Source: an uncultured virus (IMG/VR IMGVR_UViG_3300017773_000003)
Lineage: Duplodnaviria; Heunggongvirae; Uroviricota; Caudoviricetes
IMG/VR virus record: IMGVR_UViG_3300017773_000003
Length of the DNA stretch: 20,000 nt
Direction: 5' to 3' (one strand)
Shown here: in pieces, positions 1-18,992 of the stretch
Layout of the letters: every line of letters begins with the position of its first letter
Numbering within the stretch: position 1 is the first letter of the stretch
Notes under the pieces: generated by a model
Database searches by the model: none
Seen by the model: the letters and a program-made list of their open reading frames with translations, nothing else
What the model was told of the DNA's origin: nothing
Translations under genes and position numbers: made by a program

Positions 1-2
1 GT

Positions 3-1447: not shown

Positions 1448-1502
1448 AAATAGAGGGACGTATTCTTTGTACCTCATCCTAACAAGTAAAGAACATAAAA
1501 TT

Positions 1503-3061: not shown

Positions 3062-3098
3062 AGTTAAAATATATTTATAATTTAAATTTTTGTCACAT

Positions 3099-4056: not shown

Positions 4057-4098
4057 AAAGGATGTAAGGGGACTGGTTCCCCTTATACCCTTTTTTTT
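4057..4098 (+). terminator. Rho-independent terminator
   Basis: Stem TGTAAGGGGA (4063-4072) / TCCCCTTATA (4078-4087), with one G-U pair and a CTGGT loop. It can extend through AAAGG/CCTTT and is followed by T8 (4091-4098). Confidence 0.85.
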
Positions 4099-4109
4099 AA
4101 ATTCAACTT

Positions 4110-4613: not shown

Positions 4614-4637
4614 TAACAATATAAAGTAATTTAAATA

Positions 4638-7600
4638 ATGGCTATAGTATTAGCGAAACCTTTTATACATAATACTGGTATAATTGAAGTTCAACCTGGA
4701 GATAGAACTGGTTATGAAAATCCAGTACTTGGTAAAATTTATAAATTTATAATTACTGATAGAGGTAGTGATGTACTATCTTTAGAAACTTTAGGTTTAC
4801 ATAGATGCTATAGTTCAGATAACGGCTTACAGCATGTCCGTATAAAAGTTAATGCTGAGTTAGGTTCAAATAAATACGGATGTACAATACTGTATGGTGA
4901 TGCAATATCATCATGGCCATGCACAGACACTGAGCCTGTAGGGGTAAATTCTTATACTGAAATAAAGCAATCAAAAAGCCCTGAAGAACATGTAATAGAA
5001 AGTTCACCAGCTATTCCAAAAGGAACTATTTTAGTTGAGTTAGCGCATGTAGTAGGAACTAGCGTAAGTACAGCAGCTAATTTTACTCCGACTACTTCTG
5101 ATTATTCTGGTTATACTGGAAATAATATACATTCTGCATCTTATGCTAGAGCATGTTCAGATGATTTAGCATTTAACTATGACTCTAGAGCTCCAAGGGG
5201 CCCTTTTACTTATTGCAATTATGATAATATATCTAAATTATCTGATCGGGAAATACAAGCGAGAACAGGACAAGTAGATGATACTGTAACTTATATATCT
5301 TTAGAGTATGCGTTAGTCCCTGGAACTAATGATACATATGTATTTTGGGTTGACATGTCTCCTCAAGTATGGGTAATGTATCAGGCTATTCTTTGGGATA
5401 TGACTTATGAGCAAACAGGGGCTTTAGGAAGTAATTTTAATCTTGAATTATATTCTATAAATGGCCCTACACAAACTTATGGACCAGGAACTCATACAAT
5501 TTGTGTTCAAGTAAATACAGGGTATGCAGTATTTATTGATACTGTTACAATCACAGTTGACGCTCAAGTAGATGGTTGTACTGATCCAGAAGCTGCAAAT
5601 TATAACGCAGCCGCTAACAACGATGACGGTTCATGTACATATAAAATTATAGGTTGTACAGATGCTACTGCTACTAATTATGATTCATTAGCTACTAATG
5701 CTTGTGGGAGTGCTTCTGATACTAATTTTTCAGGAGAAGAAGAAAATTTTTGTTGTTTATATAGTGGGTGTATAGATCCTATAGCATTAAATTATAACCC
5801 TCAAGCAAATGTCGATGATGGTTCTTGCCAATATGAAACTGCAGTGTATGGGTGTACGGATGCTAGTGCTTGGAATTATAATCCAAATGCTACTGTAAAC
5901 GAAACAAGTATAACAGACCCAAGAAATCCTTGTATTGATAAGCACTTTGGGTGTATGGACCCAGTAGCTTCAAATTATGAAGAAGAAATAGCTGACGGTG
6001 TTAATATGCACAAGATTACAGATTGTGATTACGAAGCATGTACTGACGCTAGTGCAACTAATACAAGTACTGGAATAACTGTTGCAAATTACACTAACAC
6101 TCAAAATACTGTATCTGGTGTGTATGGGTATTGGCCGCAACCAGCAGGATCAACTTCTACTGTATTAATTTCGTCTTCAGGTAATGATCCAAACGGAGAT
6201 AGTATACCAGACTTAGTTAATAATTCTGACTTGTGTACATACTCAATACCTGTAACAGAGCCTTGCCCTGCTGACAATTGGGATTTAGCTACTAACGTAG
6301 GTACTTTAGATTATAATTACATTTACGATGCAACACCTCTTAATGATGGTACATTCCAGTTAAATACAGATGCAGGCAAAGCTTGTATTTCTCAGTTAAC
6401 TCAATATACTACAGAAACTTGGGCAGGTATTTCATATAAAAAATATACAGAAGAACGAGTAAGAGTTCAAAGAATAACATGTGATACTACTGAGCTACAA
6501 TTACATACTCCTAATGTGTATGGAGAAGTAGTTTATAAAACTACAGGATTAACAGATCCTTCTGGAGCTCCTACAGCAACAGCTGGAGGTAATGCTCTAA
6601 CTAACATTTACACTAAAGATAGTGCGCTTGCTATTGCTGATGCTGCGGCTACAGCTGGGTGGGCAGGTACTATTACGTCTACAGTATACTATTATTTTGT
6701 TATTATTAGTACAGTTGAAGATCCTATATCTGGTATGTTAATAAATACAGATATACCTCAACCTGTAGCAAATTTATTCTCTGGAAATAATATTAGTAAA
6801 GTTACTTATCATGGAGGTTATTATGAGCCTTCTACTGGTAATTCAAGTTTATTTCAAACAGCAGCTGTAAATACAACAATACTTTCAGGATATAGAGCAG
6901 GTACAGATCCTAATGGATTAATATATAATAATGCATCATCTAGTTGTGGAGCAGCAGCTTCAGATAAGATGTACAATGTTTATAAAGTAGAAGTAATAGA
7001 TCCATGTGTGTCTGCAACAGTTGACTTTTCTAGTGTGTTTAATTGCTCTGTAATTGGATGTACAGATCAAACAACTACAAACCCTCAAACTGGATTAACA
7101 ATAAATGAAGATAATTATAATTCTAATGCTACTGCATCTAATGTAACTTCTTCAATTACAGGATTAACTGCTGACACTATAGTAGGTTCTTCTTACGAAC
7201 TAGAAGGTGGGTGCTATCATTTAGCATGTACTGATTCTAACTATGTAGAATACGATTCTAGCGCAACTGCTGTTACTGATTCTACAAAATGTCTTAATTT
7301 AAAATCGTTTGGATGTACAGATCCTAACGCATCTAATTATGATCCAAATGCAAATATAAATCAAACTGGGCTAGTTAGTATTATTCCAGGAGATTTTAAT
7401 AATCATACAGGATTATCTGAAGATACTTTTGCAACTTGGAGCAGTGATACTGCCCAGTCATTTAATGGTTGGCTAACTACATCAGGATGGACAGTTAATG
7501 CTAATGGGTTGGAGTTAAGTCTTGGGCAAAATAATAGCGCTTTAACTTACTTAGCTTTTACAGTTAACCCTAGCTCAACTTATAAATTAGAAATTAATCT

Positions 7601-10600
7601 TACACATTATAGTGGGCCTAAAAATGCCTTTCTAAAATTTAGCCCTTATTCTGGGGCTGCAGATATTATACCGGCAGGTACAAATAGCACAGCTATAGGA
7701 GCGATAGTTTCTGGTACTCCTACCGTGTTTACACAAACTAATATATCTTTTAGTGAAAATACATTTGGAATATCTTTTAAGCCTTCTAATAATTCTAATA
7801 TATTAGTACATTGGATAAAATTAACTCCAGAAAATAGTTTAGTAGATCCGTGTGTATATAATTTAGAAATACCACCGCTACACGATCATTGTTCTCCAGG
7901 ACTGTTTGAAGATGTATATAATTCTGATACTTCTGCGTTTTCTAACGCAATGACAGAGTATGATAATTATGAAAGAAATGTATCACATAATAATGCTAAC
8001 TATGGGGCTACTCCTGGATTATTTAATAGTTCTAATATATGTTTAGGAGATTTTTACAGTTTGTACACATCTGAGTCAGCATCTATTCATTCAGGAGCAT
8101 TTACTTTTACATATAATAAAGAGGTTAGCGAAGTTTTTGATAAAACTCTTGTAATTAATTCTTCTAATAAAGTATTATATCTTAACTCTAAAACTTCTAC
8201 AAATTATTATAACTTAAATAATTTTAAACATAACAATTCAAATGTAGGAGGGAATGTAGATAAAGTAGATCCTGTAGGCCTTCAACAAACATTAGATAAT
8301 TTAACTGCTAATGGGTATACAGCAGAAATTACATTATTCGAGAGCTTCCATATTAGATTTGATAAATCTATTAGATTTAAAATAAACCCAGAAAGGTGTG
8401 ACACCCCAAATGCTTGTACAGACAACGAAGAGTGGACTAACGAAAAAGCTTACACTCTTGAAGAAATAGCATCTCTTACAGCTCTTGGGGAGTTTGTGAT
8501 TGAAAACAATGAGGCTGACACTTTGTGGACTCGATTTGGATTTAATGGTCTTCCTGACGATACTAGTAATTTTTTAACTGGCCCTCACGCAAACTCATTT
8601 ATACCTGCAGTAGGCACTCCTGAAGCCGCTCAATATCCTGATGGGTATGTATATTCTGATAGTTCTGTGTCTCCGGATTGTGATGCTTCTTTTAAAAGAC
8701 CTGCATATAATGTTCTTAAAGTAGTAAAAGATGTGTATTACGGAGATTGCAGTTTTCACTCAATAAACTTAAGTCCATACATTGAAGATACACCTTCTTC
8801 ACAAATATTAGGTTGTACAGATCCCGCGGCAGCTAATTACAATAGTAATGCTACTGCAAATACTCCTGGGTTTTTAGGCAACACTGAATGTGTTTATTTT
8901 GTTACTGGACCTACAGGTGGTGATCCAACAATAGATGATACACCAGTTCCAACAGACGGATGCTCATATGATGTTTTGTTACAATTTATAGGAGCAGAAA
9001 CTGGCCCTAATTCTAATACCGTTCAAGCTGCTGTAACTATTATTTTATATCAAATATACATTGATGGTTTAGGTCAAACGCAATATGATGAGATAGGTAC
9101 AATAGCAGATTGGGAAGCTTGTGAAGACGGTTTTCAAGCAGGAGAAAATGGAATATATTTTGAACAACCTGTTAGTTATGATCCTTTTGATACAACTAGT
9201 CAAAATGTAATTACTGAATTAATACCTACAGGAGATAACGCAATAGCGGGAGCAACATGGTTAAACGAACAAAATCAAGCTGAGTTTGTAATAGAAATTA
9301 CACAATCTTATCCTGAATTAACTTACGTAGATTCAAATGGAGAAACAGTTACAGGGCTAACACAAACAGTGTCTCACAATTTCTTTATACCATTAGTTGT
9401 TGAAGGGTGTACAGCCGCACTATCTTTTAATTATAATCCAGATGCTACATGTAATGTAGAAGTTGGAGTAGAAGGTCAATGTATACCAGTTATAGAAGGG
9501 TGTGAAGCTGAAGGTAATTTTAATTCAAATAACGGGATTTTAAGCTCTGTAGGAGGAACAGGAAATCCATTAGCAGTTGTAGGGAATCCATTTACAGGCA
9601 ATACTTTGCTAGATGTAAACACTGATAATGGAACGTGTATACCTCTAATTAGCGGATGTATGGATCAAACAGCAACTAATTACAATAACGCTTTAACTGA
9701 CAATGGTGAAAACATAGATTACAGTGCTGCAGGACTAACTTCATCTTCTTATAATTTACCTTTTAATGTAAATGTTTCCGATCCAAGTTTTTGTTATTAT
9801 TGTCCAGTTTCTGGTATTACTGGGATAGACACTTTAACAGAAAATTTTGTTGTTACAGCTGATGAAGAAGGTACTGATAATGATATATCATATTCATTTG
9901 AAACTGCAGGACAATTTGATGTTCCAGGATTTTTAGTAGATAATACTACAGAATATGAAGTAACTTATAATTACATTAATACAACTACTTTAGCTACTGC
10001 TAGTCCGGCAATTACTCAGGTTTTTCAATCTACTACTAGTTCTGATCATGGTAGTTTTTATTTAAATAATCAAGCAGTAACAGCTCCATACTACAGATCA
10101 AATGGTACTTTAGTATTGTATAGTATTTCTGTAACTTATGAATATAATCAAGGTCCTGCGTACGATGGTACAGATACTACAATAAATAGATGTACAGGAA
10201 GTAATGCGCATACACTTACGTTCCTTATTAATCATTCAGGAGCTCCTTCTTTTGAGTTAGGGTGTATGGATTCTACAGCATTTAACTTTAATGTTAATGC
10301 AACTGTAGATAATGGAGCACAATGTATTCCATATATTTATGGATGTCTTAATCAAAACGCTGCAAATTATAATAATTATAATATTGGAAATGTAACTGAA
10401 ATAAGTGCAGGACCAGGTGTAGATGTTAATGTGCAAATAACAGCTGATAATGACCCTTCTAATTTTAACGATTTCCAATGTCAATTTTTAGGTTGTACAG
10501 ATTCTGCTGCTGATAATTATAATCCTCAAGCAACTGCAGGAGGATTAAATGCAGGAGTTAGTACAGAATCTACTGCTCCTAATTTTTGTGAGTTTAACGG

Positions 10601-13600
10601 TTGTACTGATTCTAATGCAAGTAACTACCTAAGCTATGCTAATGTAGATGATGGTTCTTGTCTTTTCCCTGGGTGTACAGATGCGGCTGCAGATAACTAT
10701 GATTCTAATGCAAATCTTAACGATGGTAGCTGTATTTTAACAGGCTGCATGGATCACGGGCAGTGGCCAGAAATAGCTACAGGAACTTTAACAGGTATTT
10801 CAAATGATATATTAGCAACTTATAATCCTCAAAATGTTACATCACCTATACCAGGAGTAGCTGCAAATAATTATAATTCAAATGCTAATGCACATAACGC
10901 AGCTACTTGTATTTATGAAGGGTGTAATGATCAAAACGCTAATAACTATGATGAAGTATTTACTGTTAACGATGGCAGTTGTATTTATTCAGGATGTATA
11001 GATACTTCTACACCTACAATTGTAGGAAGCGGGTTAGATATAGATATTTTAGGAGGATTTACTAACTACAATTCATCTGCAAATAGTGATGATTGTTTAG
11101 GGTCTTCTATAGCTTTAACTGGGCATTTACCTGTAGCAGGTTTACCGTATGGGTCTCAGCCAATAACATGGTTAGGAGCATCTCAGCCAGGAGGGTGGAT
11201 ACCTAGTAATGGTGGAGCAATAAATGTTTATCCAGACACTAGTAGTGGGTATAATAGCGGGGTTAAATTTGTTAGAAAGCCAGGATCAACAATAGCGTCT
11301 GACGTTTCGTTAGTTAGTTTACCTTTAACAGAAGATACTACAATTACTCAAGGACCTCAAATATCTGCTATAGGAGGCAGAAAATTATTACCAAATAGTT
11401 CTTATAAAATTACAATAACAGCTACAACTGATCAAGCAAGTGGTGTTAAATTCACTGTAGGACAAAGTCTTGGCTTGACCGCGTGGACCCCTACTGTTGA
11501 CGCAAACGCTAATTACAAAATAAATTACACTTCATTAAATCTAAGTAACCCTGGAGACTCAGATACTACAACAGTTCCGCTGCCAGGAATAAATCTGCCG
11601 TTAACATTTGGTGGAAGTAGTTCTGGGCAATTTTACACTACTGTTTTGTCAGAAGTTACTACGGTAGCTGCAGATCAAAATACATTATCTACATTTATTA
11701 TAGAATTTAACACAGGAGTAAATCATACTAATAGAAATATTAATCTTGTTATTAAAAATTTAAATGCAGGTAAAAATGTAATTATTCATGATATAAATAT
11801 TCAAAGAGATTTTTGTCCAGATGTTACAAGTACTACAGCTGATAATTCAATTGTATGTTATTTACATGGTTGCGGTATAGATGGATTGTATCCAGATGGA
11901 CATGTTAATGCAGGACAGCCTTGGGCTACTAATTATAATAACTTAGTTACGTATAGTATACCTAGTGGATCTTTTGGACCTAATAATGAACCTGGTTGCA
12001 CTAGAGGTGGATGTACAAATCAGTATGCAGATAATTACGACCCTTTTGCAACATTTGATAATGGTACTTGTACTATTTCTATATGTACAGATACTGCTGC
12101 AACTATAGATGGTAATAATGCATCTAATTATTATACAGCAGATGCAGATAATCCTAATTTAGTTGCTGGAACAATAGTAGATCCTACGCATTCAGATTAT
12201 AATGGAATTACTTTTAATGATGCAGGATGTGTATGGTTAGGTTGTACAAATAGCGCATCGTTTAATTATGATTCGCAAGCAACTACAGACACTACATTAA
12301 ATCCTGTACATACTAGTTCTTGTGAAGCTGTAGTGTTAGGTTGTACAGACACTTATGCTTATAATTATAATGATACAAATGGAGATGGTGTTGCTAATGA
12401 TCCTCCTGTAAATACAGATAATGGTAGTTGTTGTGATAATTTATATTACCCAATTAATGGTGTAGGAAAATTAAATGTAGAAGGTATTGGTTCTCAAGGT
12501 CCTCAATTATTTGATTCTGCAAAATTATATCAACTTGTTGACCCTTATGAGCCTAATACAGTAACTAGTACATCTACTTCATATACAATAACTTGTCCTG
12601 CTTCAGGAACACATCAGAAGGGAGGAAGACTTTATTTAGGATTTATTGGTAATACAAATCCAAATGATATATATGGAATAGGTAATGTAGGTTTAGAGCC
12701 TAATAATATTTATAATTTAAAAGCAACTGTTGTATATACAAACGAAACAAATGCATCATTTAGATTAAACCGTACTCCTGTTAGTGGTATAACTTATGAA
12801 GTAGAGCAAGTTGCTTATTCTGCCACACAAAATATTAACATAGATTTTGAGTATGAGTCTGATAATTGGAATTATTTTATTGAATTCTATGCTCTTAGTA
12901 ATAATGCTACTGTAACAGTTAGTAATTTAGAAATTAAAAAACATACAGCAGTTTTTCCTTTATTGTCTCAATATAATTGTGCGGGAACTGCAACAGTTGA
13001 TTTAGCTTTTGATTCTTTATATGATTTAGATCCTTTAGGAGATGGAGGTGAATCTACAATGACAATTACTAGTCATCCAGCTACTAGTGCGGGAAGTGGC
13101 GTACCTGATTATGGTACAACTATATTTACTTATAGTAATGTAGATTGGGGCCATTTAGATTCTTATTACAGAGATGAGTTATTCCATCCTACTGAAACTT
13201 ATACAGCTTCTAGATGGACAGCAGCTGCTAATTGTACTATTAGTAATCCTACAGCTGACTCAATAAAAGTAACTGCAGGAACAAGTGCAGGAGATACTGG
13301 AATGTCTACAGTGTTAAAAGCCTCATGTATTGATGGTACAGGAATTTTAACTTCGTATACTCCTAATGAAGATCCTCAATGTCCAACAATTTTAGTAGCT
13401 GGTGGGGGATTAAACCACATGAACACTGGTTATTTAGATAATGATAATGGAGCTATATCACAACAAACTACTTCTTATACTTTAGAGTTTGTATTAGATA
13501 CTGATGACAGTAATGTAGAAGTTGACGTTACAGATGGGGCAGGTAATATATTAGCTACTAGTACTGCAGGCCCTGGCGTAGAAGTTCGTAGAATGATATT

Positions 13601-16600
13601 TAGTGTTCCTACAGGAAAAGAAAATGAGTGCACATTACAACTTGATGCGTTATCTGATAATAAATATGCAACAATAAGTGGTCTTAGTTTAAAACGAGGA
13701 TTCCCTATTGGTATTTATGATACTCTAAATAGTGGTAAAGGTGTTGCATCGCATATTAGAATAATATTTAATTATCCTAATGCAAGTGGAGCGTTGACTG
13801 GATGTACTTATGATCAAACTGTAGTAGTGGCACCTCCTTGTCTAGTTCAAAGTGGATGTACTGACAATGGTTTAGAGGTTAATGGTGCTGGACTTGTAAA
13901 TGATCTTACCAGCGATAGTATGTCTGCAGTTAATTACAATCCACTAGCCAATACAGATGATGGATCTTGCGTTGCAAGAGTTTTAGGTTGTACTGATAGC
14001 ACAGCAAAGAATTATAGCGCTGCTGCTAATACAAACTGGACAACTGCAACTAATCACACATCTCCATGTTACCCTAAAGTGCACGGATGTACTGATCCAA
14101 CGGCTTGGAATTATAATAACTATTGGATGAATAATGTTGGTGGTGGAACATTTAACCAAGCTTTCCATAACACTATGGCTACTGAAGACTGGGTAAGTGG
14201 GACAGATCTTGGAACAGAATATACTGGAAGTGAAAAATTCTTAATACAGTCAGAATTAGGTCCAGGCAGTACAATGACTACTCAATTACAAAATGTTGAT
14301 GGATTTGAATATAGTGAACTTGTACCTGCACCTGATTCTCCATATTCTCAATACCCTGGTGCATTTGGTGATTACCCTCAAGCAGTAACAGGAGTTCTTG
14401 GTATTGATGTAAACGAGTCTATATCTAGCGGGCCAGGATCATGTATAGCAAAAGTATTTGGATGTACAGATTCAACAGCTACTAATTATAGTTCGGCAGC
14501 TAATACAGAATATGTACCATCTAATTGTTGTTACGATTTAGCTGCGGATGATCCATATATTGGACCTCTACCATTTATTACAGAAGAAGTTTGTGACTTA
14601 AGACCTTATGTAGCAGCTGATGGTGCATACTCTGCAAACATACAAGTAAATGTTAGATTAGCAAATGACAATATTGTAAGCGAATTAAAACTTGAATCAA
14701 CATTATATACTCTTACTTCTAAAAACAGAGCAGGGGTTACAATAGATACAACTACTGCTAGTTTTGCAACTTTATTAGATGCCGGTGTAAATCTTAAAAC
14801 TTATAAATACGCTCTAGATGCAGACGCTACTTTAGAAGCAGCGTACTTGAATAGTAACGTTACTAATAGCGCATTTGTTACAGCGCATATCGGTAATGAT
14901 GATAACAGAGCATCTAAAATAACAGTAGATGTTTCTTATCAATCTGCATATGAGCAAGGTCAAGCAGGGACTACATTATGTACAGGAGTTACACAAGACG
15001 TATCTTTGTTGCCAGCAATTGGTACTGAAACTGCTGGAGGGTTAGTATACAAAACAGATGCTGCAAATGATTATTCGTATATAGTAAAAACACAAACATT
15101 AGAAGACTCTGTGTTTGGGTGTAGAGGAACAAACATTTCTGGAGCTGTTGGAGCAAACATAGGAGACGGTATTGCAAATACACTTGCAATAGAGGCTGCG
15201 TGTACAACTGCAAATACAGCAGCTGATAGAGCTGCTAATTTAAATGATGCAGGATTTACTGATTGGTATTTACCATCTCAAGGAGAGCTAGTAGAAATAT
15301 ATAACGCTTTAGTAAATACAAATTTATATTCTGCTTTTGCTAATGGAGAGTATGTGTCATCTACTCAAGCAAATGCTAACGAAGTTAAAGCTGTTAATTT
15401 TGCAAATGGAACTGTTTCTAATATAAGTAAAGAGTCTACTTTTAAAGTGCTAGCTGTAAGAAGAACAAACTCTAGCCATATAGGGCAAGGAGATCCTTCA
15501 TGCAAATCGCTTTATGGTTGTACGGATCCTGGTTTTACAGAATATTACGCTAATCCTTCTGTTAATACAGACAGTGCAGGCGCCTTAATAGATAATGGTA
15601 CGTGTTTAACTCCTGCTGTAATAGGATGTACAAATGCAAACTATACAGAGTCCTATACTACTGTTAATGAAAATATAGTATCAGCAGCTAACTCTCCATT
15701 TGACTACAATATAACAACATATAGTGTAAGTGGGTCATCTACAATAAATGTAAACGATCCAACTACGTGTCAAACAGTTTTGATTCCAGGGTGTACAGAT
15801 CCAGATTATGCAAACTTTTATGGACCAGTTCAATCTTCAATAGGCCCAGACGGCCAAGATTTTTATGGAGGTAGCAATGGTCTCCCTAATAATATAACGT
15901 ATACTTTTACAAACGCTTATGGAGTTTCTGAAACTATTACTGCAGATCATTATAATAAAGATAACGGAACTTGCACAGTATCAGCAGAAGCAGGATGTAG
16001 AGATAAATTTTCAGATAGTGTAACATACACAGATATTCAAACAGGGTTACCTACAACTATTACTCCGACATTTTGTTTATACACGCCTACTGTTAATGTA
16101 GCATTGCCAGGCGCATGTGAAGGTGTTCACGGATGTACAGACACTGAATATGCAGAATCTAGTTATTACACTGCTGAGTGTGATGCAGAAAACGGAACAG
16201 AAGGTGTAGTTTGTGAAAATCTAGCTATATCTGCGTGTACAGATCCAAATTATTTAGAATATGATTCTAATCCTTTTGCAATAAGCAATCAAGATTTATG
16301 TGTAACTTTTAAAGTTGAAGGATGTACAGATTCAACATATGCTGAATATTACCAAGTAATAGCTGCAGGAAATTCTGTTCCTAATTTTGATCCTTTACCA
16401 GGAACTAACACAACAAGTGATAGTTCTTTAAACAATGGTAGTTGTATTAATTTAATAGGATGTGTAGATGCTACTAATACAGCTGCATATAATCCTTCTG
16501 ATTACACTACAATAACAGGAGATGGGGTATCAATTGCAAATGGTGGTAACGGTTACGCAGCTGGTGAATTAATTTACATAGGTATACAAAATGCTACGCC

Positions 16601-18569
16601 TATTTATACAGAGTCTATGTATTCTGCTAGTAATGGTTTATATGGAACCCCAAGTACTGGGTGTGACGGCGACACAATTGTTTCAGGGTGCGCTTTAACT
16701 AATTCTACTAATTATAATTATTTAGCAAATAACCCTTGTAATGTTCAAGGCGCAGACAATGATTGTTGTTACGAATCTATACTAGGATGTACTGATGCGA
16801 CAGCAGTTAATTTTAATCCTGCAGCAACTAATGACGATGGAAGCTGTGAAGATCACATAAATGGGTGCACAAATCCAGAGTCTCCTTCTTATAACCCCCA
16901 AGCAACTGAAGGTAACCCAGATGCTGCAACCGCTTGTATTAAAGTTATATATGGGTGTATTACTCCTACTGTAACTACATTAGATGGAGGAAGTGCTCCT
17001 TCATTCCCTTGTACTGAAGATAATACTCCTGGGTGCTATCAACAAGGATATGAACTTGGAAACGGAGTTGCTGTAACAGCTCCAAATACAGATTTTAGTG
17101 ATCCGTCTTATCAAGGAGACTTACATTGTTATCCTGTAATTGAAGGCTGTATGGATGCAACTGCTATAAACTACAATAATCCAGATCCAACGCAATCCGT
17201 AGTTATCCCATTAGATACTAGTGATAATGCGTTATTTATAAATGTAAATACTGCATGCAATGGTTGTTGTATAGCAAATGTAAATGGATGTACGGATTCA
17301 ACTGCAAGTAATTATAATCCACTAGCTACTGTTGATGATGGATCTTGTACATATGTAGATGGATGTATGGACGCTGCAGCATGGAATTATAATGCAGCAG
17401 CTACAAATAATAATGGAAGCTGCAGTTATTGTCAACAGTTTACTGTAAAAGCTACTATTACTAAACCTACAACAGATGAATCTTTGGATGGTATTATTGA
17501 GTTAACTGTAACTCCCGCTACTGGATTTAATATTTCTTGGACAGTTGGAGGGGTAGCTAATTCAGACTACGATGGATTAACTATTATTACAGGTTTGTCT
17601 GTAGGAGATTACGCATATACTATTTATGACACAACAGATACAAGCTCTGGTCCAAGCCATGAAAATCCAGCTACATTCTGTCAATTAGATGATAATATTA
17701 CTTTTGATATTATAGAGCTGTCTCCAGATGATTTTGGATGTACTGATGAAACAGCTTTTAATTATGATTCTTCTGCAATTGTTGATGATGGCTCTTGTAT
17801 AATTTACGGATGTACAGACCCAACGTCTTCTACATATAATCCTTTAGCTAATACAAATGACGGAACTTGTATATATATAGAAGGATGTACAGATGCTACA
17901 GCATGTAATTACAACTCAGACGCAATACTTGATAACGGAACTTGTACTTACCCAGTAGGATATTATAATTGTGACGGAGAATGTAATAATCCTATAGATC
18001 CATTAGTATATCCGCATCTTGCAGGGTACTGTGAAGAGCAAGTAGCAGAAGATTGTTTAGATGTAAATGCATTTAATTTTATTGGTAGAACAAGAACTTC
18101 AAGAATAAATATTAACCCAGAATCACCAAGTCAAATTGCAGCTTTACCAATAGCTGTTAGAGATGATGGGTCTTGTGTGTACTTAAACGAATGTGTTCCC
18201 CATGATATATATGATATTCAAGATGCATTAAAAAGAACAATTTCTGATCACAGTAAAACAGTTTACACTCAAATGCGTACTGGTATGCTAGAGCCAACTG
18301 ATATGGAAATATTATGGAAACTACAATTAGTAGACTATGCTCTAAATAGAACAGGAAATGACACTTTATTTAATTGTCAAGACTATGATCATTTAGGTCA
18401 AGTAACTTATTCAGAAGGTACAGTAACATCTACAAATTATTTAGATAGATTCCTTACATTTGCATTTAAACATGGAGATCAGCATTTTGTACAAGTTAGA
18501 AATGCACGAACTGCTCAATTAAATGTGGATAAATTTAAATCAAATAGAAACAAAAGACAAAGATCATGA
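4638..18569 (+). CDS. Giant (4643 aa) Cys-repeat multidomain protein, putative virion-associated adhesin/fibre
   Basis: A single uninterrupted 13.9-kb ORF, rich in T/N/S/G/D/C, with roughly 45-50 GCxDxxAxNY-type repeats interleaved with globular beta-rich domains. It has no obvious signal peptide and is embedded in the structural operon. The ORF is certain; the function is inferred. Confidence 0.8.
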   Translation: MAIVLAKPFIHNTGIIEVQPGDRTGYENPVLGKIYKFIITDRGSDVLSLETLGLHRCYSSDNGLQHVRIKVNAELGSNKYGCTILYGDAISSWPCTDTEPVGVNSYTEIKQSKSPEEHVIESSPAIPKGTILVELAHVVGTSVSTAANFTPTTSDYSGYTGNNIHSASYARACSDDLAFNYDSRAPRGPFTYCNYDNISKLSDREIQARTGQVDDTVTYISLEYALVPGTNDTYVFWVDMSPQVWVMYQAILWDMTYEQTGALGSNFNLELYSINGPTQTYGPGTHTICVQVNTGYAVFIDTVTITVDAQVDGCTDPEAANYNAAANNDDGSCTYKIIGCTDATATNYDSLATNACGSASDTNFSGEEENFCCLYSGCIDPIALNYNPQANVDDGSCQYETAVYGCTDASAWNYNPNATVNETSITDPRNPCIDKHFGCMDPVASNYEEEIADGVNMHKITDCDYEACTDASATNTSTGITVANYTNTQNTVSGVYGYWPQPAGSTSTVLISSSGNDPNGDSIPDLVNNSDLCTYSIPVTEPCPADNWDLATNVGTLDYNYIYDATPLNDGTFQLNTDAGKACISQLTQYTTETWAGISYKKYTEERVRVQRITCDTTELQLHTPNVYGEVVYKTTGLTDPSGAPTATAGGNALTNIYTKDSALAIADAAATAGWAGTITSTVYYYFVIISTVEDPISGMLINTDIPQPVANLFSGNNISKVTYHGGYYEPSTGNSSLFQTAAVNTTILSGYRAGTDPNGLIYNNASSSCGAAASDKMYNVYKVEVIDPCVSATVDFSSVFNCSVIGCTDQTTTNPQTGLTINEDNYNSNATASNVTSSITGLTADTIVGSSYELEGGCYHLACTDSNYVEYDSSATAVTDSTKCLNLKSFGCTDPNASNYDPNANINQTGLVSIIPGDFNNHTGLSEDTFATWSSDTAQSFNGWLTTSGWTVNANGLELSLGQNNSALTYLAFTVNPSSTYKLEINLTHYSGPKNAFLKFSPYSGAADIIPAGTNSTAIGAIVSGTPTVFTQTNISFSENTFGISFKPSNNSNILVHWIKLTPENSLVDPCVYNLEIPPLHDHCSPGLFEDVYNSDTSAFSNAMTEYDNYERNVSHNNANYGATPGLFNSSNICLGDFYSLYTSESASIHSGAFTFTYNKEVSEVFDKTLVINSSNKVLYLNSKTSTNYYNLNNFKHNNSNVGGNVDKVDPVGLQQTLDNLTANGYTAEITLFESFHIRFDKSIRFKINPERCDTPNACTDNEEWTNEKAYTLEEIASLTALGEFVIENNEADTLWTRFGFNGLPDDTSNFLTGPHANSFIPAVGTPEAAQYPDGYVYSDSSVSPDCDASFKRPAYNVLKVVKDVYYGDCSFHSINLSPYIEDTPSSQILGCTDPAAANYNSNATANTPGFLGNTECVYFVTGPTGGDPTIDDTPVPTDGCSYDVLLQFIGAETGPNSNTVQAAVTIILYQIYIDGLGQTQYDEIGTIADWEACEDGFQAGENGIYFEQPVSYDPFDTTSQNVITELIPTGDNAIAGATWLNEQNQAEFVIEITQSYPELTYVDSNGETVTGLTQTVSHNFFIPLVVEGCTAALSFNYNPDATCNVEVGVEGQCIPVIEGCEAEGNFNSNNGILSSVGGTGNPLAVVGNPFTGNTLLDVNTDNGTCIPLISGCMDQTATNYNNALTDNGENIDYSAAGLTSSSYNLPFNVNVSDPSFCYYCPVSGITGIDTLTENFVVTADEEGTDNDISYSFETAGQFDVPGFLVDNTTEYEVTYNYINTTTLATASPAITQVFQSTTSSDHGSFYLNNQAVTAPYYRSNGTLVLYSISVTYEYNQGPAYDGTDTTINRCTGSNAHTLTFLINHSGAPSFELGCMDSTAFNFNVNATVDNGAQCIPYIYGCLNQNAANYNNYNIGNVTEISAGPGVDVNVQITADNDPSNFNDFQCQFLGCTDSAADNYNPQATAGGLNAGVSTESTAPNFCEFNGCTDSNASNYLSYANVDDGSCLFPGCTDAAADNYDSNANLNDGSCILTGCMDHGQWPEIATGTLTGISNDILATYNPQNVTSPIPGVAANNYNSNANAHNAATCIYEGCNDQNANNYDEVFTVNDGSCIYSGCIDTSTPTIVGSGLDIDILGGFTNYNSSANSDDCLGSSIALTGHLPVAGLPYGSQPITWLGASQPGGWIPSNGGAINVYPDTSSGYNSGVKFVRKPGSTIASDVSLVSLPLTEDTTITQGPQISAIGGRKLLPNSSYKITITATTDQASGVKFTVGQSLGLTAWTPTVDANANYKINYTSLNLSNPGDSDTTTVPLPGINLPLTFGGSSSGQFYTTVLSEVTTVAADQNTLSTFIIEFNTGVNHTNRNINLVIKNLNAGKNVIIHDINIQRDFCPDVTSTTADNSIVCYLHGCGIDGLYPDGHVNAGQPWATNYNNLVTYSIPSGSFGPNNEPGCTRGGCTNQYADNYDPFATFDNGTCTISICTDTAATIDGNNASNYYTADADNPNLVAGTIVDPTHSDYNGITFNDAGCVWLGCTNSASFNYDSQATTDTTLNPVHTSSCEAVVLGCTDTYAYNYNDTNGDGVANDPPVNTDNGSCCDNLYYPINGVGKLNVEGIGSQGPQLFDSAKLYQLVDPYEPNTVTSTSTSYTITCPASGTHQKGGRLYLGFIGNTNPNDIYGIGNVGLEPNNIYNLKATVVYTNETNASFRLNRTPVSGITYEVEQVAYSATQNINIDFEYESDNWNYFIEFYALSNNATVTVSNLEIKKHTAVFPLLSQYNCAGTATVDLAFDSLYDLDPLGDGGESTMTITSHPATSAGSGVPDYGTTIFTYSNVDWGHLDSYYRDELFHPTETYTASRWTAAANCTISNPTADSIKVTAGTSAGDTGMSTVLKASCIDGTGILTSYTPNEDPQCPTILVAGGGLNHMNTGYLDNDNGAISQQTTSYTLEFVLDTDDSNVEVDVTDGAGNILATSTAGPGVEVRRMIFSVPTGKENECTLQLDALSDNKYATISGLSLKRGFPIGIYDTLNSGKGVASHIRIIFNYPNASGALTGCTYDQTVVVAPPCLVQSGCTDNGLEVNGAGLVNDLTSDSMSAVNYNPLANTDDGSCVARVLGCTDSTAKNYSAAANTNWTTATNHTSPCYPKVHGCTDPTAWNYNNYWMNNVGGGTFNQAFHNTMATEDWVSGTDLGTEYTGSEKFLIQSELGPGSTMTTQLQNVDGFEYSELVPAPDSPYSQYPGAFGDYPQAVTGVLGIDVNESISSGPGSCIAKVFGCTDSTATNYSSAANTEYVPSNCCYDLAADDPYIGPLPFITEEVCDLRPYVAADGAYSANIQVNVRLANDNIVSELKLESTLYTLTSKNRAGVTIDTTTASFATLLDAGVNLKTYKYALDADATLEAAYLNSNVTNSAFVTAHIGNDDNRASKITVDVSYQSAYEQGQAGTTLCTGVTQDVSLLPAIGTETAGGLVYKTDAANDYSYIVKTQTLEDSVFGCRGTNISGAVGANIGDGIANTLAIEAACTTANTAADRAANLNDAGFTDWYLPSQGELVEIYNALVNTNLYSAFANGEYVSSTQANANEVKAVNFANGTVSNISKESTFKVLAVRRTNSSHIGQGDPSCKSLYGCTDPGFTEYYANPSVNTDSAGALIDNGTCLTPAVIGCTNANYTESYTTVNENIVSAANSPFDYNITTYSVSGSSTINVNDPTTCQTVLIPGCTDPDYANFYGPVQSSIGPDGQDFYGGSNGLPNNITYTFTNAYGVSETITADHYNKDNGTCTVSAEAGCRDKFSDSVTYTDIQTGLPTTITPTFCLYTPTVNVALPGACEGVHGCTDTEYAESSYYTAECDAENGTEGVVCENLAISACTDPNYLEYDSNPFAISNQDLCVTFKVEGCTDSTYAEYYQVIAAGNSVPNFDPLPGTNTTSDSSLNNGSCINLIGCVDATNTAAYNPSDYTTITGDGVSIANGGNGYAAGELIYIGIQNATPIYTESMYSASNGLYGTPSTGCDGDTIVSGCALTNSTNYNYLANNPCNVQGADNDCCYESILGCTDATAVNFNPAATNDDGSCEDHINGCTNPESPSYNPQATEGNPDAATACIKVIYGCITPTVTTLDGGSAPSFPCTEDNTPGCYQQGYELGNGVAVTAPNTDFSDPSYQGDLHCYPVIEGCMDATAINYNNPDPTQSVVIPLDTSDNALFINVNTACNGCCIANVNGCTDSTASNYNPLATVDDGSCTYVDGCMDAAAWNYNAAATNNNGSCSYCQQFTVKATITKPTTDESLDGIIELTVTPATGFNISWTVGGVANSDYDGLTIITGLSVGDYAYTIYDTTDTSSGPSHENPATFCQLDDNITFDIIELSPDDFGCTDETAFNYDSSAIVDDGSCIIYGCTDPTSSTYNPLANTNDGTCIYIEGCTDATACNYNSDAILDNGTCTYPVGYYNCDGECNNPIDPLVYPHLAGYCEEQVAEDCLDVNAFNFIGRTRTSRININPESPSQIAALPIAVRDDGSCVYLNECVPHDIYDIQDALKRTISDHSKTVYTQMRTGMLEPTDMEILWKLQLVDYALNRTGNDTLFNCQDYDHLGQVTYSEGTVTSTNYLDRFLTFAFKHGDQHFVQVRNARTAQLNVDKFKSNRNKRQRS
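15018..15464 (+). other. DUF1566 / Lcl-like C-type-lectin-fold domain inside the giant ORF
   Basis: Pattern IG....GGLVY ... IGDG..NT..I...C.....AA.....L...GFTDWYLPSQGEL..IY ... EYVSSTQ ... VNF.NG......K.....VLAVR. Confidence 0.8.
17430..17705 (+). other. SprB-repeat-like Ig module inside the giant ORF
   Basis: TITKPT.....DGIIELTV......ISW......ITGLSVGDYAYTIYD......C matches the SprB repeat pattern DG.I...V......YSW......L.GL..G.Y.VTV.D..GC. Confidence 0.65.
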
Positions 18570-18991: not shown

Positions 18992-18992
18992 A

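What the first reader, a model, noticed from the sequence alone, without database searches (positions are those of the whole stretch)
4638..18569. Giant (~0.5 MDa) multi-lectin Cys-repeat scaffold protein inside a crAss-like virion operon
Seen: a 4643-aa ORF between a tail-hub-like gene and a tail fibre gene, built from about 45-50 GCTD..A.NY..DDGSC repeats with many inserted globular domains. It has no evident signal peptide, transmembrane segment or T9SS sorting tail. Knowledge: I recall this repeat mainly from secreted surface proteins of marine Flavobacteriales and marine archaea, and the known giant crAss-like proteins are ejected cargo/RNA polymerase proteins of different composition. 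Inference: this is a very long virion appendage displaying several different glycan-binding heads, possibly for binding host capsule, particles or algal polysaccharide. It is the best candidate here for an undescribed system.
Basis: partly seen in the sequence, partly recalled or inferred. Interest (0 to 1): 0.88.

Follow-up and report, generated by a model that had tools for sequence, protein, structure and literature searches.

The report
Giant cysteine-repeat fibre of marine crAss-like phage
A marine relative of the gut crAss phages encodes a real 4,643-residue, cysteine-stapled protein among its particle genes, most likely a very long sticky appendage held on by its conserved tail end; the kind is familiar, but the protein family, its size range and its predicted docking partner have not been described.

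Summary
The ORF (4638-18569, +, 4643 aa, 494.6 kDa) is real and is not an assembly artefact. Three colinear full-length homologues exist (74, 57 and 44% identity), and contigs from four other public runs bridge both ends. It lies in a divergent marine crAss-like structural operon, after the capsid gene, a gp33-like gene and a ring 3/4 gene, and before a tail-fibre gene. It is not the muzzle protein and does not lie in the cargo block: two related 65-kb contigs carry a separate muzzle gene about 11 kb downstream. The body holds 31 confident (up to 47) two-cysteine mini-repeats that no library names. 145 of 156 cysteines are conserved. About 16 cysteine-free domains lie between the repeats or are nested inside them. 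"Multi-lectin" is only partly supported: one sequence-level Lcl_C adhesin domain and one weak fold-level CBM-like domain. The family's constant part is a C-terminal helical domain of about 130 aa. A complex model (score 0.66, best control 0.01) predicts that it binds the small Cys-rich protein encoded directly upstream in 7 of 7 loci. Among phages whose capsid proteins are 81-92% identical, the protein in this slot ranges from 1390 to about 5204 aa. Best reading: an expandable, C-terminally anchored virion adhesin fibre. Presence in the virion, site of attachment and ligands are inferred.

The parts
3..1370 (+). Major capsid protein (5'-truncated by the window edge)
   Evidence: PF23898 Crass_capsid E 9.3e-79; phrog_11589 E 4.3e-86. 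At most about 32% identical to any capsid gene among 50,697 deposited phage records, but 81-92% identical to those of seven fetched loci from six IMG/VR contigs.
1467..2312 (+). 281-aa protein, gp33-like
   Evidence: hhalign against crAss001 gp33: probability 56%, E 1.1e-4, 202 colinear columns. No Pfam or PHROG hit.
2333..3061 (+). Tail barrel ring protein 3/4 homologue (242 aa)
   Evidence: PF25710 CrAss_Ring_3_4 E 4.3e-5, 23.3 bits, below the 27-bit cut-off; phrog_15924 E 3.3e-12. The G002 orthologue passes the cut-off (31.5 bits).
3090..4043 (+). 317-aa protein at the position of crAss001 gp36 (auxiliary capsid protein); identity not shown
   Evidence: No hit in Pfam, PHROGs, PDB sequences or hhalign against crAss001 proteins. 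Assigned by position only.
4110..4613 (+). 167-aa Cys-rich small protein (beta-rich N-terminal half; helical C-terminal half ending CDxDCDCGC): predicted docking partner of the giant's C-terminal domain
   Evidence: Directly upstream of the slot gene in 7 of 7 loci. hhalign to the distant L007 and L008 copies gives 98.8-98.9% probability. 29 homologues, none with a Pfam domain. Complex model: its residues 88-126 contact the giant's C-terminal domain. FN3/Ig-like N-terminal half is a weak lead only.
4638..18569 (+). Giant ORF, 4643 aa (P0001)
   Evidence: Colinear homologues P0003, P0004 and P0005. Contigs of four other public runs cover 29-30 of 30 bins and bridge both ends.
4638..5573 (+). 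N-terminal region, aa 1-312: the least conserved part; aa 215-312 is an Ig/PKD/FN3-like beta-sandwich
   Evidence: Identity to P0003/P0004/P0005 is 56/36/32% for aa 1-214. Fold matches for aa 217-312: Z 7.9-8.3; PrtV PKD1 4l9d, TM 0.73 on the target. Model pLDDT here is 51-69. No hit in deposited phages or IMG/VR.
5574..6062 (+). First array of Cys mini-repeats, aa 313-475
   Evidence: Six units by HMM. Cys and the G-C..D/N-Y columns are invariant across 10 family members.
6063..7055 (+). Domain A, aa 476-806: the only internal globular domain shared by all nine family clusters
   Evidence: BLAST hits in P0003-5, P0010-11, P0019, P0021, P0023 and P0026. Best-predicted part of the model (pLDDT 65-84 for aa 590-810). 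No fold match was listed for it.
7314..7853 (+). One mini-repeat (Cys893 to Cys1072) with a whole CBM-like jelly-roll domain nested in its loop
   Evidence: Repeat head GCTDPNASNYDPNAN at 892; no Cys for 178 residues; closing DPCVY at 1072, with C1072 and Y1074 invariant in the family. aa 940-1067 match CBM36, CBM22, CBM4, SGBP-B and EclA at Z 6.9-8.1.
14088..14444 (+). Second repeat with a nested domain (Cys3151 to Cys3269, 117 Cys-free residues)
   Evidence: Head GCTDPTAWNYNNY at 3150, closing GPGSC at 3269. Fold not predicted.
15201..15461 (+). Lcl_C domain, aa 3522-3608
   Evidence: PF07603 E 8e-9, 36.3 bits (cut-off 34.9); 39.9 bits in a 400-aa window. Homologous domains sit at the extreme C-termini of crAss muzzle-family proteins P0052, P0050, P0045 and P0066.
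15516..16784 (+). Array of variant repeats (GCTD..Y.EY type) with loop insertions, aa 3627-4049
17736..17945 (+). Three canonical repeats in tandem, aa 4367-4436
   Evidence: HMM i-E 1.7e-12 to 3.4e-10.
18168..18569 (+). Conserved C-terminal helical domain, aa 4511-4643, with a basic tail (KFKSNRNKRQRS): the signature of the family and the predicted docking module
   Evidence: The most conserved part (89/80/75% identity). Only 17 hits among 1.84 billion representatives. Helical core of the model at pLDDT about 90. Predicted to bind the 167-aa protein. Encoded as a separate ORF in G003.
18566..18991 (+). 141-aa helical protein whose start overlaps the giant's stop (ATGA)
   Evidence: Conserved downstream in all lineages. 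No family hit. It did not account for the complex score: the score fell to 0.00 when the 167-aa chain was replaced.
18993..20000 (+). Tail fibre (3'-truncated) with a conserved N-terminal domain of about 120 aa
   Evidence: phrog_24456 E 1.3e-20 and three further tail-fibre PHROGs. N-terminus conserved, remainder variable across loci.

Best explanation
The gene encodes a structural appendage of a marine crAss-like (Crassvirales) phage, probably of Flavobacteriales. It is a roughly 0.5-MDa, strongly acidic chain of small two-cysteine modules, presumably each closed by a disulfide. These modules carry about 16 different Cys-free globular domains, some between the repeats and at least two inside repeat loops. 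Shown: the gene is real and conserved, and it sits in the particle-gene block between capsid/ring genes and tail-fibre genes. It is separate from the muzzle and cargo genes. Its constant element is a C-terminal helical domain of about 130 aa, and the small Cys-rich gene always lies directly upstream. Inferred: the C-terminal domain docks the protein onto that small protein, which lies where crAss001 has its fibre-docking hub genes. The variable body and N-terminus then project outwards. Lcl_C, CBM-like and Ig-like modules give weak, multivalent binding to polysaccharide (host capsule or slime, or algal and particle glycans), as a first reversible adsorption step ahead of the ordinary tail fibres and muzzle. 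Disulfides would form after lysis in oxic seawater. The body grows and shrinks by gain and loss of repeat-plus-domain cassettes.
For: Reality: three colinear homologues of 4619-4630 aa from other sources. Contigs from four non-source runs cover 29-30 of 30 bins and bridge the start (X14 4037-8333; X6 3615-6319) and the stop (X14 11121-19499; X6 16311-18736). The stretch is held by 20 runs of 11 studies labelled viral, seawater or marine metagenome. Context: capsid, gp33-like and ring 3/4 genes upstream, tail fibre downstream. The order capsid, ~270 aa, ring 3/4, ~310 aa, ~165 aa, giant, ~140 aa, fibres recurs in G002, G003, G004 and G005. G002 continues with a lysis cassette, R2, R1 and a 1996-aa muzzle gene. 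Not muzzle or cargo. Anchor polarity: the C-terminal domain is the best conserved part (89/80/75%) and the N-terminus the worst (56/36/32%). The same C-terminal domain ends the 1447- and 1390-aa slot proteins of L008 and L007, whose N-termini are unrelated. Docking: three-chain model, median ipSAE 0.66 (runs 0.51-0.71), best of 3 controls 0.01; the mark was reached by 116 of 157 solved complexes and 2 of 215 mismatched pairs; runs agree in at least 32% of contacts; partner pLDDT at least 57. The score fell to 0.00 when the 167-aa chain was replaced. The interface uses the most conserved segments of both proteins. My own alignments were used, so the calibration holds only roughly. Gene pair present in 7 of 7 loci. 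Extracellular, adhesive character: 145 of 156 Cys conserved. The repeat is shared with T9SS-secreted giants of Flavobacteriales and with true crAss muzzle proteins of 2600-3700 aa, some of which end in an Lcl_C-like domain. Lcl-CTD binds sulphated glycosaminoglycans (abstract of PMC11162425). CBM-like and PKD-like folds. Fast evolution typical of host-contact proteins: capsid 81-92% identical, slot protein 28-64% identical and 1390 to about 5204 aa.
Against: No virion proteomics or imaging exists for this lineage, so presence in the particle is inferred. No search identifies the 167-aa partner as a hub, collar or capsid protein. hhalign of the C-terminal domain against crAss001 THB gp39 is negative, and its fold matches are generic helical bundles (best Z 7.3; crAss001 7qoj_I at Z 6.1 is within noise). 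A C-terminal anchor is the reverse of the usual fibre polarity; the ordinary fibre next door has the usual conserved N-terminus. In G003 the C-terminal domain is a separate ORF, which an anchor model has to explain by non-covalent or disulfide association. Glycan binding rests on one borderline Pfam domain and on fold-class matches from a model with mean pLDDT 48.7. A chain with about 78 potential disulfides has to be made in a reducing cytoplasm. The complex score is a model's confidence, not a measurement.
Confidence: 0.55

Rival explanations
1. Same appendage, opposite role for the ends. The C-terminal helical domain is an assembly chaperone or folding module, working in cis or in trans together with the 167-aa protein. 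The N-terminus is what attaches to the virion, as in most tail fibres.
For: In G003 the C-terminal domain is a separate 167-aa ORF with its own ATG two bases after the giant's stop, and P0077 is a stand-alone 154-aa copy. Fibre chaperones are often encoded beside the fibre, or fused to its C-terminus (established knowledge of endosialidase and T5 pb1 chaperone domains, recalled). Within the giant subfamily the first 35 or so residues are recognisably conserved (MA.ILAK.F).
Against: The N-terminus is the least conserved region, and it is replaced by unrelated acidic sequences in the L007 and L008 slot proteins. No Peptidase_S74 or other chaperone family hit was found. The predicted interface with the 167-aa protein looks like a stable helical pairing.
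Confidence: 0.15
2. It is a head (capsid) fibre or decoration rather than a tail fibre. The 167-aa protein is then a capsid-bound adaptor, and the giant chain projects from the head, in the manner of Hoc-like adherence to mucus or particles.
For: The gene block from the capsid gene to the giant also holds gp33-like and gp36-position genes, which are capsid-associated in crAss001. The 167-aa protein has a weak FN3/Ig-like signal (E 0.14; Atlas 0.84-0.85), as capsid decoration proteins often do (recalled). crAss-BACON repeat ORFs near head genes have been proposed as capsid-decorating binders (passages of PMC6949934).
Against: The gene is followed at once, with an overlapping stop and start, by the 141-aa gene and then the tail fibre. 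No similarity to crAss001 head fibre gp29 was found.
Confidence: 0.15
3. It is not part of the particle. It is a late protein released at lysis that acts outside the cell, for instance by sticking cells, debris or polysaccharide together or by decoying receptors.
For: It has no signal peptide or T9SS tail, so release would need lysis. Its nearest non-phage relatives are secreted bacterial surface proteins. A related phage contig encodes a 745-aa T9SS-tailed protein with 10 of the same repeats, so these phages do carry non-virion repeat proteins.
Against: Its position is conserved inside the structural operon in all loci, its stop overlaps the next gene's start, and it is predicted to pair with a conserved small neighbour. 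14 kb of a genome of about 90-100 kb is a high price for a non-essential moron, yet length is kept within 0.5% among homologues down to 44% identity.
Confidence: 0.1
4. It is an internal cargo or ejected protein, like crAss001 gp45-gp50.
For: Giant size. Crassviruses are known to package very large proteins (passages of PMC10172136).
Against: Cargo genes follow the muzzle gene in crAss001, whereas this gene lies about 11 kb upstream of the muzzle gene in G002 and G003. 156 mostly conserved cysteines and adhesin or CBM-like domains do not fit a protein that must unfold to pass through the tail. No RNA polymerase or TM features were found.
Confidence: 0.03
5. It is this phage's muzzle protein, hugely expanded.
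For: Other marine crassviruses have muzzle proteins of 2600-3700 aa with the same repeats and an Lcl_C tip. The top BFVD match is a muzzle C-terminal-domain protein of Virus NIOZ-UU157 (E 1.3e-11, TM 0.08).
Against: No PF25731 or PF25729 hit in the whole protein or in 23 windows. The N-terminus is unlike the muzzle consensus. BLASTP against crAss001 gp44 gives E 2.7 at best. Both 65-kb contigs that carry a giant also carry a separate 1996- or 2006-aa crAss_MUZ gene next to R1; 2 of 5 records had a muzzle match, and the other 3 are 17-23-kb fragments that end before that region.
Confidence: 0.02

Closest known systems
Muzzle proteins of marine crAss-like phages carrying the same repeat (crAss_MUZ PF25731 / crAss_MUZ_C PF25729; e.g. 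P0044, P0045, P0060; Virus NIOZ-UU157 protein A0A7S9SUA2)
   Same: Same Cys mini-repeat arrays. An Lcl_C-like domain as a terminal module in several. Same virus order and habitat. External tail structure.
   Different: They have the muzzle N-terminal ring-joining motif and beta-propeller profile, which the giant lacks. The giant has its own C-terminal helical domain, its own slot in the genome, and co-exists with a separate muzzle gene.
Giant T9SS-secreted Cys-repeat surface proteins of marine Flavobacteriales and Saprospiraceae (P0006-P0009, P0012-P0018; 4400-7700 aa; PF18962 C-terminal sorting domain)
   Same: The GCTD..NY..DDGSC mini-repeat, 26-31% identity over 9-20% of the query. Beads-on-a-string build with interspersed domains.
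   Different: Most carry the T9SS sorting tail (three listed here do not: two are records marked partial, and P0018 carries CBM domains instead) and lie on large contigs of 35-234 kb. None of the giant's 13 globular segments has a match in them beyond one 24-residue stretch. The giant has no sorting tail and ends in the phage-specific helical domain.
crAss-BACON tandem-repeat ORFs of gut crAss-like phages (PMC6949934)
   Same: A crAss-like phage protein built from a tandem array of a domain borrowed from host surface glycan-binding systems. Proposed to be tail-associated and to evolve by repeat expansion (passages seen).
   Different: A different domain (BACON, of Ig-like size), a different phage lineage and habitat, no cysteine stapling, and no nested domains. 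Function equally untested.
Legionella collagen-like adhesin Lcl (PF07603 Lcl_C; NF046116)
   Same: One domain (aa 3522-3608) matches Lcl_C above the Pfam cut-off. Lcl-CTD binds sulphated glycosaminoglycans (abstract of PMC11162425).
   Different: No collagen-like region. The NCBIfam equivalog score is 26 bits against a cut-off of 500. Lcl-CTD works as a trimer at the end of a collagen stalk; here it is one internal module.
crAss001 tail-fibre docking system (THA gp38, THB gp39 and the N-terminus of fibre gp22; PMC10172136)
   Same: Small proteins encoded between the auxiliary capsid gene and ring protein 2 hold a fibre's terminus. The hubs are disulfide-stabilised (passages seen). The 167-aa gene and the giant occupy that stretch of the gene order.
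   Different: No sequence or profile similarity of the 167-aa protein or the C-terminal domain to gp38 or gp39. Docking here would be by the fibre's C-terminus, not its N-terminus.
Earlier finding of this scan, e1-5869927 (3,591-residue appendage of another marine crAss-like phage)
   Same: A string of small Cys-stapled modules of an unannotated family, with whole domains spliced into their loops.
   Different: Another genome; its nested domains were reported as propellers and a protease. I did not compare the sequences, and it is an unchecked AI note.

Membership tests
Crassvirus muzzle protein (PF25731 crAss_MUZ / PF25729 crAss_MUZ_C) | Match to the muzzle profile | tested here: not met
   No hit at E<=0.01 for the whole protein or at E<=1 in 23 overlapping 400-aa windows. 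As positive controls, P0044 scores E 1e-130 and the G002 muzzle E 7.6e-56.
Crassvirus muzzle protein (PF25731 crAss_MUZ / PF25729 crAss_MUZ_C) | N-terminal ring-joining motif (MPE.K..F..GKMNKDLDERLVP or MAK.NK....T.PQGFTHGMISD in the 13 muzzle-family hits) | tested here: not met
   The giant starts MAIVLAKPFIHNTGIIEVQPGD; by inspection it is unlike all 13.
Crassvirus muzzle protein (PF25731 crAss_MUZ / PF25729 crAss_MUZ_C) | It is the genome's muzzle gene, next to ring protein 1 | tested here: not met
   G002 and G003 have R1 followed by a 1996- or 2006-aa muzzle gene about 11 kb downstream of their giants. The window itself ends before that region.
Lcl collagen-like adhesin (PF07603 domain; NF046116 equivalog) | Lcl_C domain | tested here: met
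   36.3 bits against a cut-off of 34.9 for the whole protein; 39.9 bits in a window. P0003-P0005 score 20-31 bits, below the cut-off.
Lcl collagen-like adhesin (PF07603 domain; NF046116 equivalog) | Full-length equivalog with a collagen-like region | tested here: not met
   NF046116 scores 26.4 bits against a cut-off of 500. No Collagen hit.
T9SS cargo proteins of Bacteroidota | C-terminal sorting domain (PF18962 Por_Secre_tail) | tested here: not met
   No hit. As a positive control, the 745-aa ORF of G002 scores E 1.9e-12.
T9SS cargo proteins of Bacteroidota | N-terminal Sec signal peptide | not testable with these tools
   No signal-peptide predictor was available. By eye the N-terminus has only a 5-residue hydrophobic run.
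Carbohydrate-binding modules (beta-jelly-roll CBM4/6/22/36 class) | CBM fold | tested here: inconclusive
   aa 940-1067 align to CBM36 (1w0n, Z 7.4), CBM22 (4xuo, Z 7.1), CBM4 (1gui, Z 6.9), SGBP-B (7kwc, Z 7.4) and EclA (6yf6, Z 7.3). Z is in the range the tool calls middling, and the model pLDDT there is about 55-75. Weak Pfam DUF642 (E 0.11) and an Atlas CBM_4_9 lead (0.87) for aa 2584-3072.
Carbohydrate-binding modules (beta-jelly-roll CBM4/6/22/36 class) | Ligand-binding residues or measured glycan binding | not tested
   Needs a confident model or an experiment.
Phage tail fibre families (PHROGs 'tail') | Profile match | tested here: inconclusive
   No PHROG at E<=0.01 for the whole protein, and none at E<=0.1 for the N-terminal part; the C-terminal part has only phrog_26291 (unknown function, E 0.023). 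PHROGs holds little from marine crAss-like phages.
Unnamed family defined here: slot proteins of marine crAss-like phages ending in the C-terminal helical domain | C-terminal domain (..NEC.P.DI...TGM.....W.L.L..Y....G....NC.DY......NY.D.F..F) | tested here: met
   17 hits among 1.84 billion representatives. 13-sequence alignment with 14 invariant columns.
Unnamed family defined here: slot proteins of marine crAss-like phages ending in the C-terminal helical domain | The gene lies directly downstream of the 162-177-aa Cys-rich gene, after capsid and ring 3/4 genes | tested here: met
   7 of 7 loci.

The most novel reading that the evidence does not exclude
This is a previously unrecognised class of phage appendage with three features. 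First, it is anchored by its C-terminus through a dedicated two-protein docking pair (helical domain plus small Cys-rich adaptor) that has no counterpart in the solved crAss001 virion. Second, its shaft is a disulfide-stapled 'socket' repeat shared with host T9SS adhesins, into whose loops whole binding domains are plugged. Third, this lets closely related phages (capsids at least 81% identical) rebuild a fibre of 1,400 to 5,200 residues with different sets of glycan-binding heads. On this reading it would serve to hold virions on algal or particle polysaccharide where Flavobacteriales hosts feed, rather than for host recognition proper.
Probability: 0.2. Interest if true: 0.8.

Novelty: new variant of a known kind. 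Interest (0 to 1): 0.6.

Why it matters
Flavobacteriales are the main degraders of algal polysaccharide in the sea, and crAss-like phages are among their abundant viruses, yet none of these marine lineages has a solved particle. This slot gene takes up about 14 kb of a genome of roughly 90-100 kb (the longest contigs that carry homologues of the neighbouring 167-aa gene are 90-93 kb). It evolves much faster than the capsid, and its length varies nearly four-fold between close relatives, which marks it as a likely determinant of where and how these virions stick. It also supplies three testable items. One is an unnamed, widespread two-cysteine repeat that can hold whole domains in its loops. 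One is a rare C-terminal domain with a predicted partner. The third is how a cytoplasmically assembled virion acquires about 78 disulfides. The kind itself, a long modular phage adhesin fibre, is familiar, and this scan has already met a similar protein.

Tried and rejected
Muzzle identity was rejected.

Cargo identity was rejected on gene order and composition.

Chimeric assembly was rejected. The many 'joints' have short sides of 20-35 bases at the repeat-coding stretches, where depth also peaks. I read them as assembly-graph cross-talk between repeats, not as variants.

C-terminal domain as a THB (gp39) homologue:
- hhalign probability 0.1%.
- The fold match to 7qoj_I at Z 6.1 lies among 111 chains with Z>=5 and is not distinguishable from a generic helical bundle.

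The 167-, 141- and 317-aa neighbours against nine crAss001 structural proteins by hhalign gave nothing above 1% probability; the first attempt timed out.

PDB sequence searches:
- Whole protein: only 8q4e at E 0.69 over the Lcl_C region.
- A3: fibronectin at E 0.14.
- A1: E 0.64.
- 317-aa protein: none.

NCBIfam windows gave only the weak Lcl equivalog.

tblastn of the N-terminal 311 aa and the C-terminal 209 aa against 50,697 phage records found no match. The last 1044 aa gave one record at 6% coverage. The N-terminal domain in IMG/VR gave 0 of 7 candidates confirmed.

AlphaFold2 of aa 1-1200 with 10 sequences had mean pLDDT 48.7, so the repeat fold, domain A and the extreme N-terminus remain unresolved. 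Foldseek against the PDB gave no match at E<=0.001. BFVD matches have TM scores of at most 0.29 (most under 0.2) and mostly reflect repeat sequence.

Atlas searches scored below 0.9, so they are leads only.

No RNA holder was listed among the public runs.

The window's own assembly is not held; G001 is a 4.35-kb fragment covering window 1-3485 only.

Paper searches for the motif and for any description of such a protein in marine Crassvirales found nothing relevant: 'DDGSC' (12 unrelated papers), (0 papers).

Full report
**1. The observation**

The window has one ORF from 4638 to 18569 on the + strand: ATG start, 4643 codons, 494.6 kDa, pI 4.05. All large ORFs of the window lie on the + strand with short or overlapping junctions. 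The giant's stop overlaps the next start (tcATGAca at 18566-18569).

A literal search finds 11 canonical C.D..A.NY..A..DDGSC units and 47 GCxD-type starts. A repeat HMM iterated once finds 31 units at i-E<0.01 and 47 at domE<=10. The distance from the first Cys of a unit to the next Cys is 17-22 residues in 16 of 52 heads, 23-60 in 21, over 60 in 6, and under 17 in 9.

There is no TM-like stretch (maximum 19-residue Kyte-Doolittle mean 1.31). There is no T9SS sorting domain.

**2. It is a real, conserved gene**

Searching 5.8 billion clustered proteins gave 73 hits. Three are colinear over the full length:
- P0003: 74% identity, 4630 aa.
- P0004: 57%, 4619 aa.
- P0005: 44%, 4625 aa.

Six further clusters (P0010/11, P0019, P0021/23, P0026; 3552-5304 aa) share one or both termini: all six the C-terminal part, and four of them also the N-terminal part in the first BLAST (three when the N-terminal segment was run alone).

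145 of 156 cysteines are identical in all four full-length proteins, against 31% of other residues.

The DNA of 4638-14637 is held by 20 public runs of 11 studies, labelled viral, seawater or marine metagenome. Contigs of four runs not flagged as possible sources cover 29-30 of 30 bins of the window with few differences and bridge both ends of the ORF. A chimeric assembly is excluded.

**3. Context**

- The 5'-truncated first ORF is a crassvirus major capsid protein (PF23898 E 9e-79).
- The 242-aa ORF is a ring 3/4 homologue, below the Pfam cut-off here and above it in the G002 orthologue.
- The last ORF matches tail-fibre PHROGs.
- The 281-aa ORF resembles crAss001 gp33 (hhalign 56%, E 1e-4).
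- The capsid protein is only about 32% identical to that of any deposited phage, so this is a divergent lineage. It is 81-92% identical to the capsid genes of seven fetched loci from six IMG/VR contigs.

In the four contigs with a giant or 3,500-aa slot protein (G002-G005) the order capsid, ~270 aa, ring 3/4, ~310 aa, ~165 aa, slot protein, ~140 aa recurs. In L007 and L008 the ring gene is larger, one small gene is added, and a ~480-aa gene separates the slot protein from the ~140-aa gene.

In the two 65-kb contigs (G002, G003) the series goes on with fibres. In G002, whose ORFs I scanned, the following come next: a collagen-like protein, a 745-aa protein with a T9SS sorting domain, a thioredoxin-like protein, an M15 peptidase, a holin, ring protein 2, ring protein 1 and a 1996-aa muzzle protein. 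G003 has a 2006-aa muzzle gene at the matching place.

In crAss001 the corresponding order is MCP gp32, gp33, R4/5 gp34, R3 gp35, AUX gp36, THA gp38, THB gp39, R2 gp40, R1 gp43, muzzle gp44, cargo gp45-50 (passages of PMC10172136). So the giant with its fibre and lysis neighbours sits where crAss001 has its fibre-docking hub genes. It is neither the muzzle nor a cargo gene.

**4. What the protein is made of**

Pfam finds one domain, Lcl_C (aa 3522-3608). Twenty-three overlapping windows add nothing above noise in Pfam or NCBIfam. PHROGs and PDB sequences give nothing.

The 13 inter-repeat segments are not paralogous to each other. All 13 are found in the three full-length homologues; their presence in the six more distant clusters varies. 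Only the N-terminal region, domain A (aa 476-806) and the C-terminal domain are widely shared: domain A and the C-terminal domain by all nine family clusters, and the N-terminal region by six. The Lcl_C-containing segment also matches the extreme C-termini of crAss muzzle-family proteins.

What is shared with bacterial proteins is the mini-repeat itself. The bacterial proteins are giants of 4,400-7,700 aa, most with T9SS tails, from Flavobacteriales and Saprospiraceae metagenome bins. The same repeat occurs in true muzzle proteins of 2,600-3,700 aa of other marine crassviruses and in the T9SS-tailed phage ORF of G002 (10 units). No library names it, and a full-text search for 'DDGSC' found nothing relevant.

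I tested this here:
- Cys893 opens a normal repeat head. The next 178 residues have no Cys. The unit closes with DPCVY at the family-invariant Cys1072.
- Cys3151 to Cys3269 does the same with 117 Cys-free residues.

So at least two whole domains are nested. Most others lie between units or carry their own cysteines.

**5. Folds**

AlphaFold2 of aa 1-1200 with a 10-sequence alignment was poor (mean pLDDT 48.7). Two parts gave consistent fold-class matches in three searches:
- aa 217-312: Ig/PKD/FN3-like (Z 7.9-8.3; 4l9d TM 0.73 on the target).
- aa 940-1067, the nested domain: CBM-like jelly roll (CBM36/22/4, SGBP-B, EclA; Z 6.9-8.1).

These Z values are in the range the tool calls middling. 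The Atlas gave a CBM_4_9 lead at 0.87 for aa 2584-3072.

'Multi-lectin' is therefore plausible but thinly supported: one sequence-level adhesin domain, one fold-level CBM and one lead.

**6. The constant part and its partner**

Identity to P0003/P0004/P0005 is highest in the C-terminal domain (89/80/75%) and lowest in the first 214 residues (56/36/32%).

An exhaustive HMMER scan of 1.84 billion representatives with the last 207 residues found only 17 proteins. They include proteins of 723-1416 aa that end in the same domain, and a stand-alone 154-aa copy.

In two more distant contigs (L008, L007; capsid 81-86% identical) the same slot holds 1447- and 1390-aa proteins. These have 5-7 repeats, the same C-terminal domain and unrelated acidic N-termini. 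So the slot protein ranges from 1390 to about 5204 aa among close relatives and diverges to 28-34% identity while the capsid stays above 81%.

The C-terminal domain models as a helical bundle (core pLDDT about 90, whole model 57) with only generic fold matches.

The 162-177-aa Cys-rich gene lies directly upstream in 7 of 7 loci. It has no family assignment.

A three-chain complex model was run with the 167-aa protein, the 141-aa protein and the C-terminal domain as partner:
- Median ipSAE 0.66 (runs 0.51-0.71), against 0.01 for the best of three controls.
- The score fell to 0.00 when the 167-aa chain was replaced.
- The mark was reached by 116 of 157 solved complexes and 2 of 215 mismatched pairs.
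- The runs agree in at least 32% of contacts; partner pLDDT is at least 57.
- My own alignments were used, so the calibration holds only roughly.

The interface joins residues 88-126 of the small protein (its most conserved, Cys-rich helical part) to giant residues of about 4557-4578 and 4601-4608 (its most conserved motifs). The model supports binding; it does not show it.

**7. Reading**

Shown:
- The gene is real and fast-evolving.
- It sits in the structural block.
- It is distinct from the muzzle and cargo genes.
- Its C-terminal domain is constant.
- The gene pair with the upstream Cys-rich gene is conserved.
- Its repeats are those of extracellular host adhesins and of phage muzzle tips.

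Inferred:
- It is in the virion.
- It is held by its C-terminus on the small Cys-rich protein, whether on the collar or on the capsid is unresolved.
- It projects a long flexible stalk of disulfide-closed units carrying varied binding modules for reversible attachment to polysaccharide.

Problems:
- The polarity is unusual.
- G003 encodes the C-terminal domain as a separate ORF (TAA-G-ATG junction). That would also fit a chaperone-like role.
- Nothing identifies the partner.
- No proteomics exists for this lineage.

I put 0.55 on the main reading. The rivals are a polarity/chaperone variant (0.15), a head fibre (0.15), a non-virion released protein (0.10), cargo (0.03) and muzzle (0.02).

**8. 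Novelty**

The kind, a long modular phage adhesin or fibre with Ig- and CBM-like modules, is known. crAss-BACON repeat proteins are the nearest published parallel within crAss-like phages (passages of PMC6949934).

New here:
- The protein family and its C-terminal domain.
- The predicted docking pair.
- The unnamed socket-like repeat on a crassvirus.
- The nearly four-fold size range among close relatives.

My paper searches found no description. I saw only listings and abstracts for most hits, and I read passages of PMC10172136 and PMC6949934 and the abstract of PMC11162425. Supplements were not consulted. This scan has already recorded a similar protein in another genome, which lowers the surprise.

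Noticed in passing
L016:3498-5735 (IMG/VR contig G002, downstream of its giant gene): A phage ORF of 745 aa carries a T9SS C-terminal sorting domain (Por_Secre_tail, E 1.9e-12) and 10 of the same Cys mini-repeats. This phage seems to encode a protein for export by its host's type IX secretion system.
   Followed up: partly
L016:7110-7451 (G002): A 113-aa thioredoxin-like ORF (PF00085 E 3.4e-4, below the cut-off) lies in the same fibre and lysis block. It is a candidate helper for the many disulfides of the giant and the hub proteins.
   Followed up: no
L017:19627 / L018:129-632 (G003): The giant ends early (4835 aa), and its C-terminal domain is a separate 167-aa ORF that starts two bases after the stop (TAA-G-ATG). 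P0077 is the same stand-alone form. This is either a real split or a frameshift in one lineage.
   Followed up: partly
L016:7875-8728 (G002): A lysis cassette (M15 peptidase, then a 3-TM holin) is embedded between the fibre genes and ring protein 2, inside the tail module.
   Followed up: no
window 4110-4613: The 167-aa protein has 11 cysteines and ends in CDNDCDCGC. This ending and the CxxxKC...SCxCxSPxCS block are conserved even in the distant L007 and L008 copies. It could be a metal- or disulfide-cluster motif.
   Followed up: partly
P0044-P0047, P0045, P0052, P0054, P0056, P0060, P0063, P0064, P0066, P0070, P0072 (metagenome proteins): Crassvirus muzzle proteins of 2600-3700 aa, twice the crAss001 size, are extended by the same Cys repeats, and in some cases by an Lcl_C-like tip. 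Two different N-terminal muzzle motifs occur among them.
   Followed up: partly
window 5337-6003, 10006-10672, 13341-14007, 17343-18009: Summed contig depth peaks 3- to 8-fold in X6 and X8 (less in X12 and X14), and many short-sided 'joints' fall at the stretches coding canonical repeats. This probably comes from repeat-coding DNA shared with other genes and organisms in the samples.
   Followed up: no
L016:2796-3287 (G002): A 163-aa collagen triple-helix repeat protein (E 1.8e-9) lies among the fibre genes. It is notable because Lcl_C normally sits on a collagen stalk.
   Followed up: no
window 18993-20000 and its orthologues (L003, L005, L016, L018): The ordinary tail fibre has a conserved N-terminal domain of about 120 aa and a variable remainder. 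This is the opposite conservation gradient to the giant next to it.
   Followed up: partly
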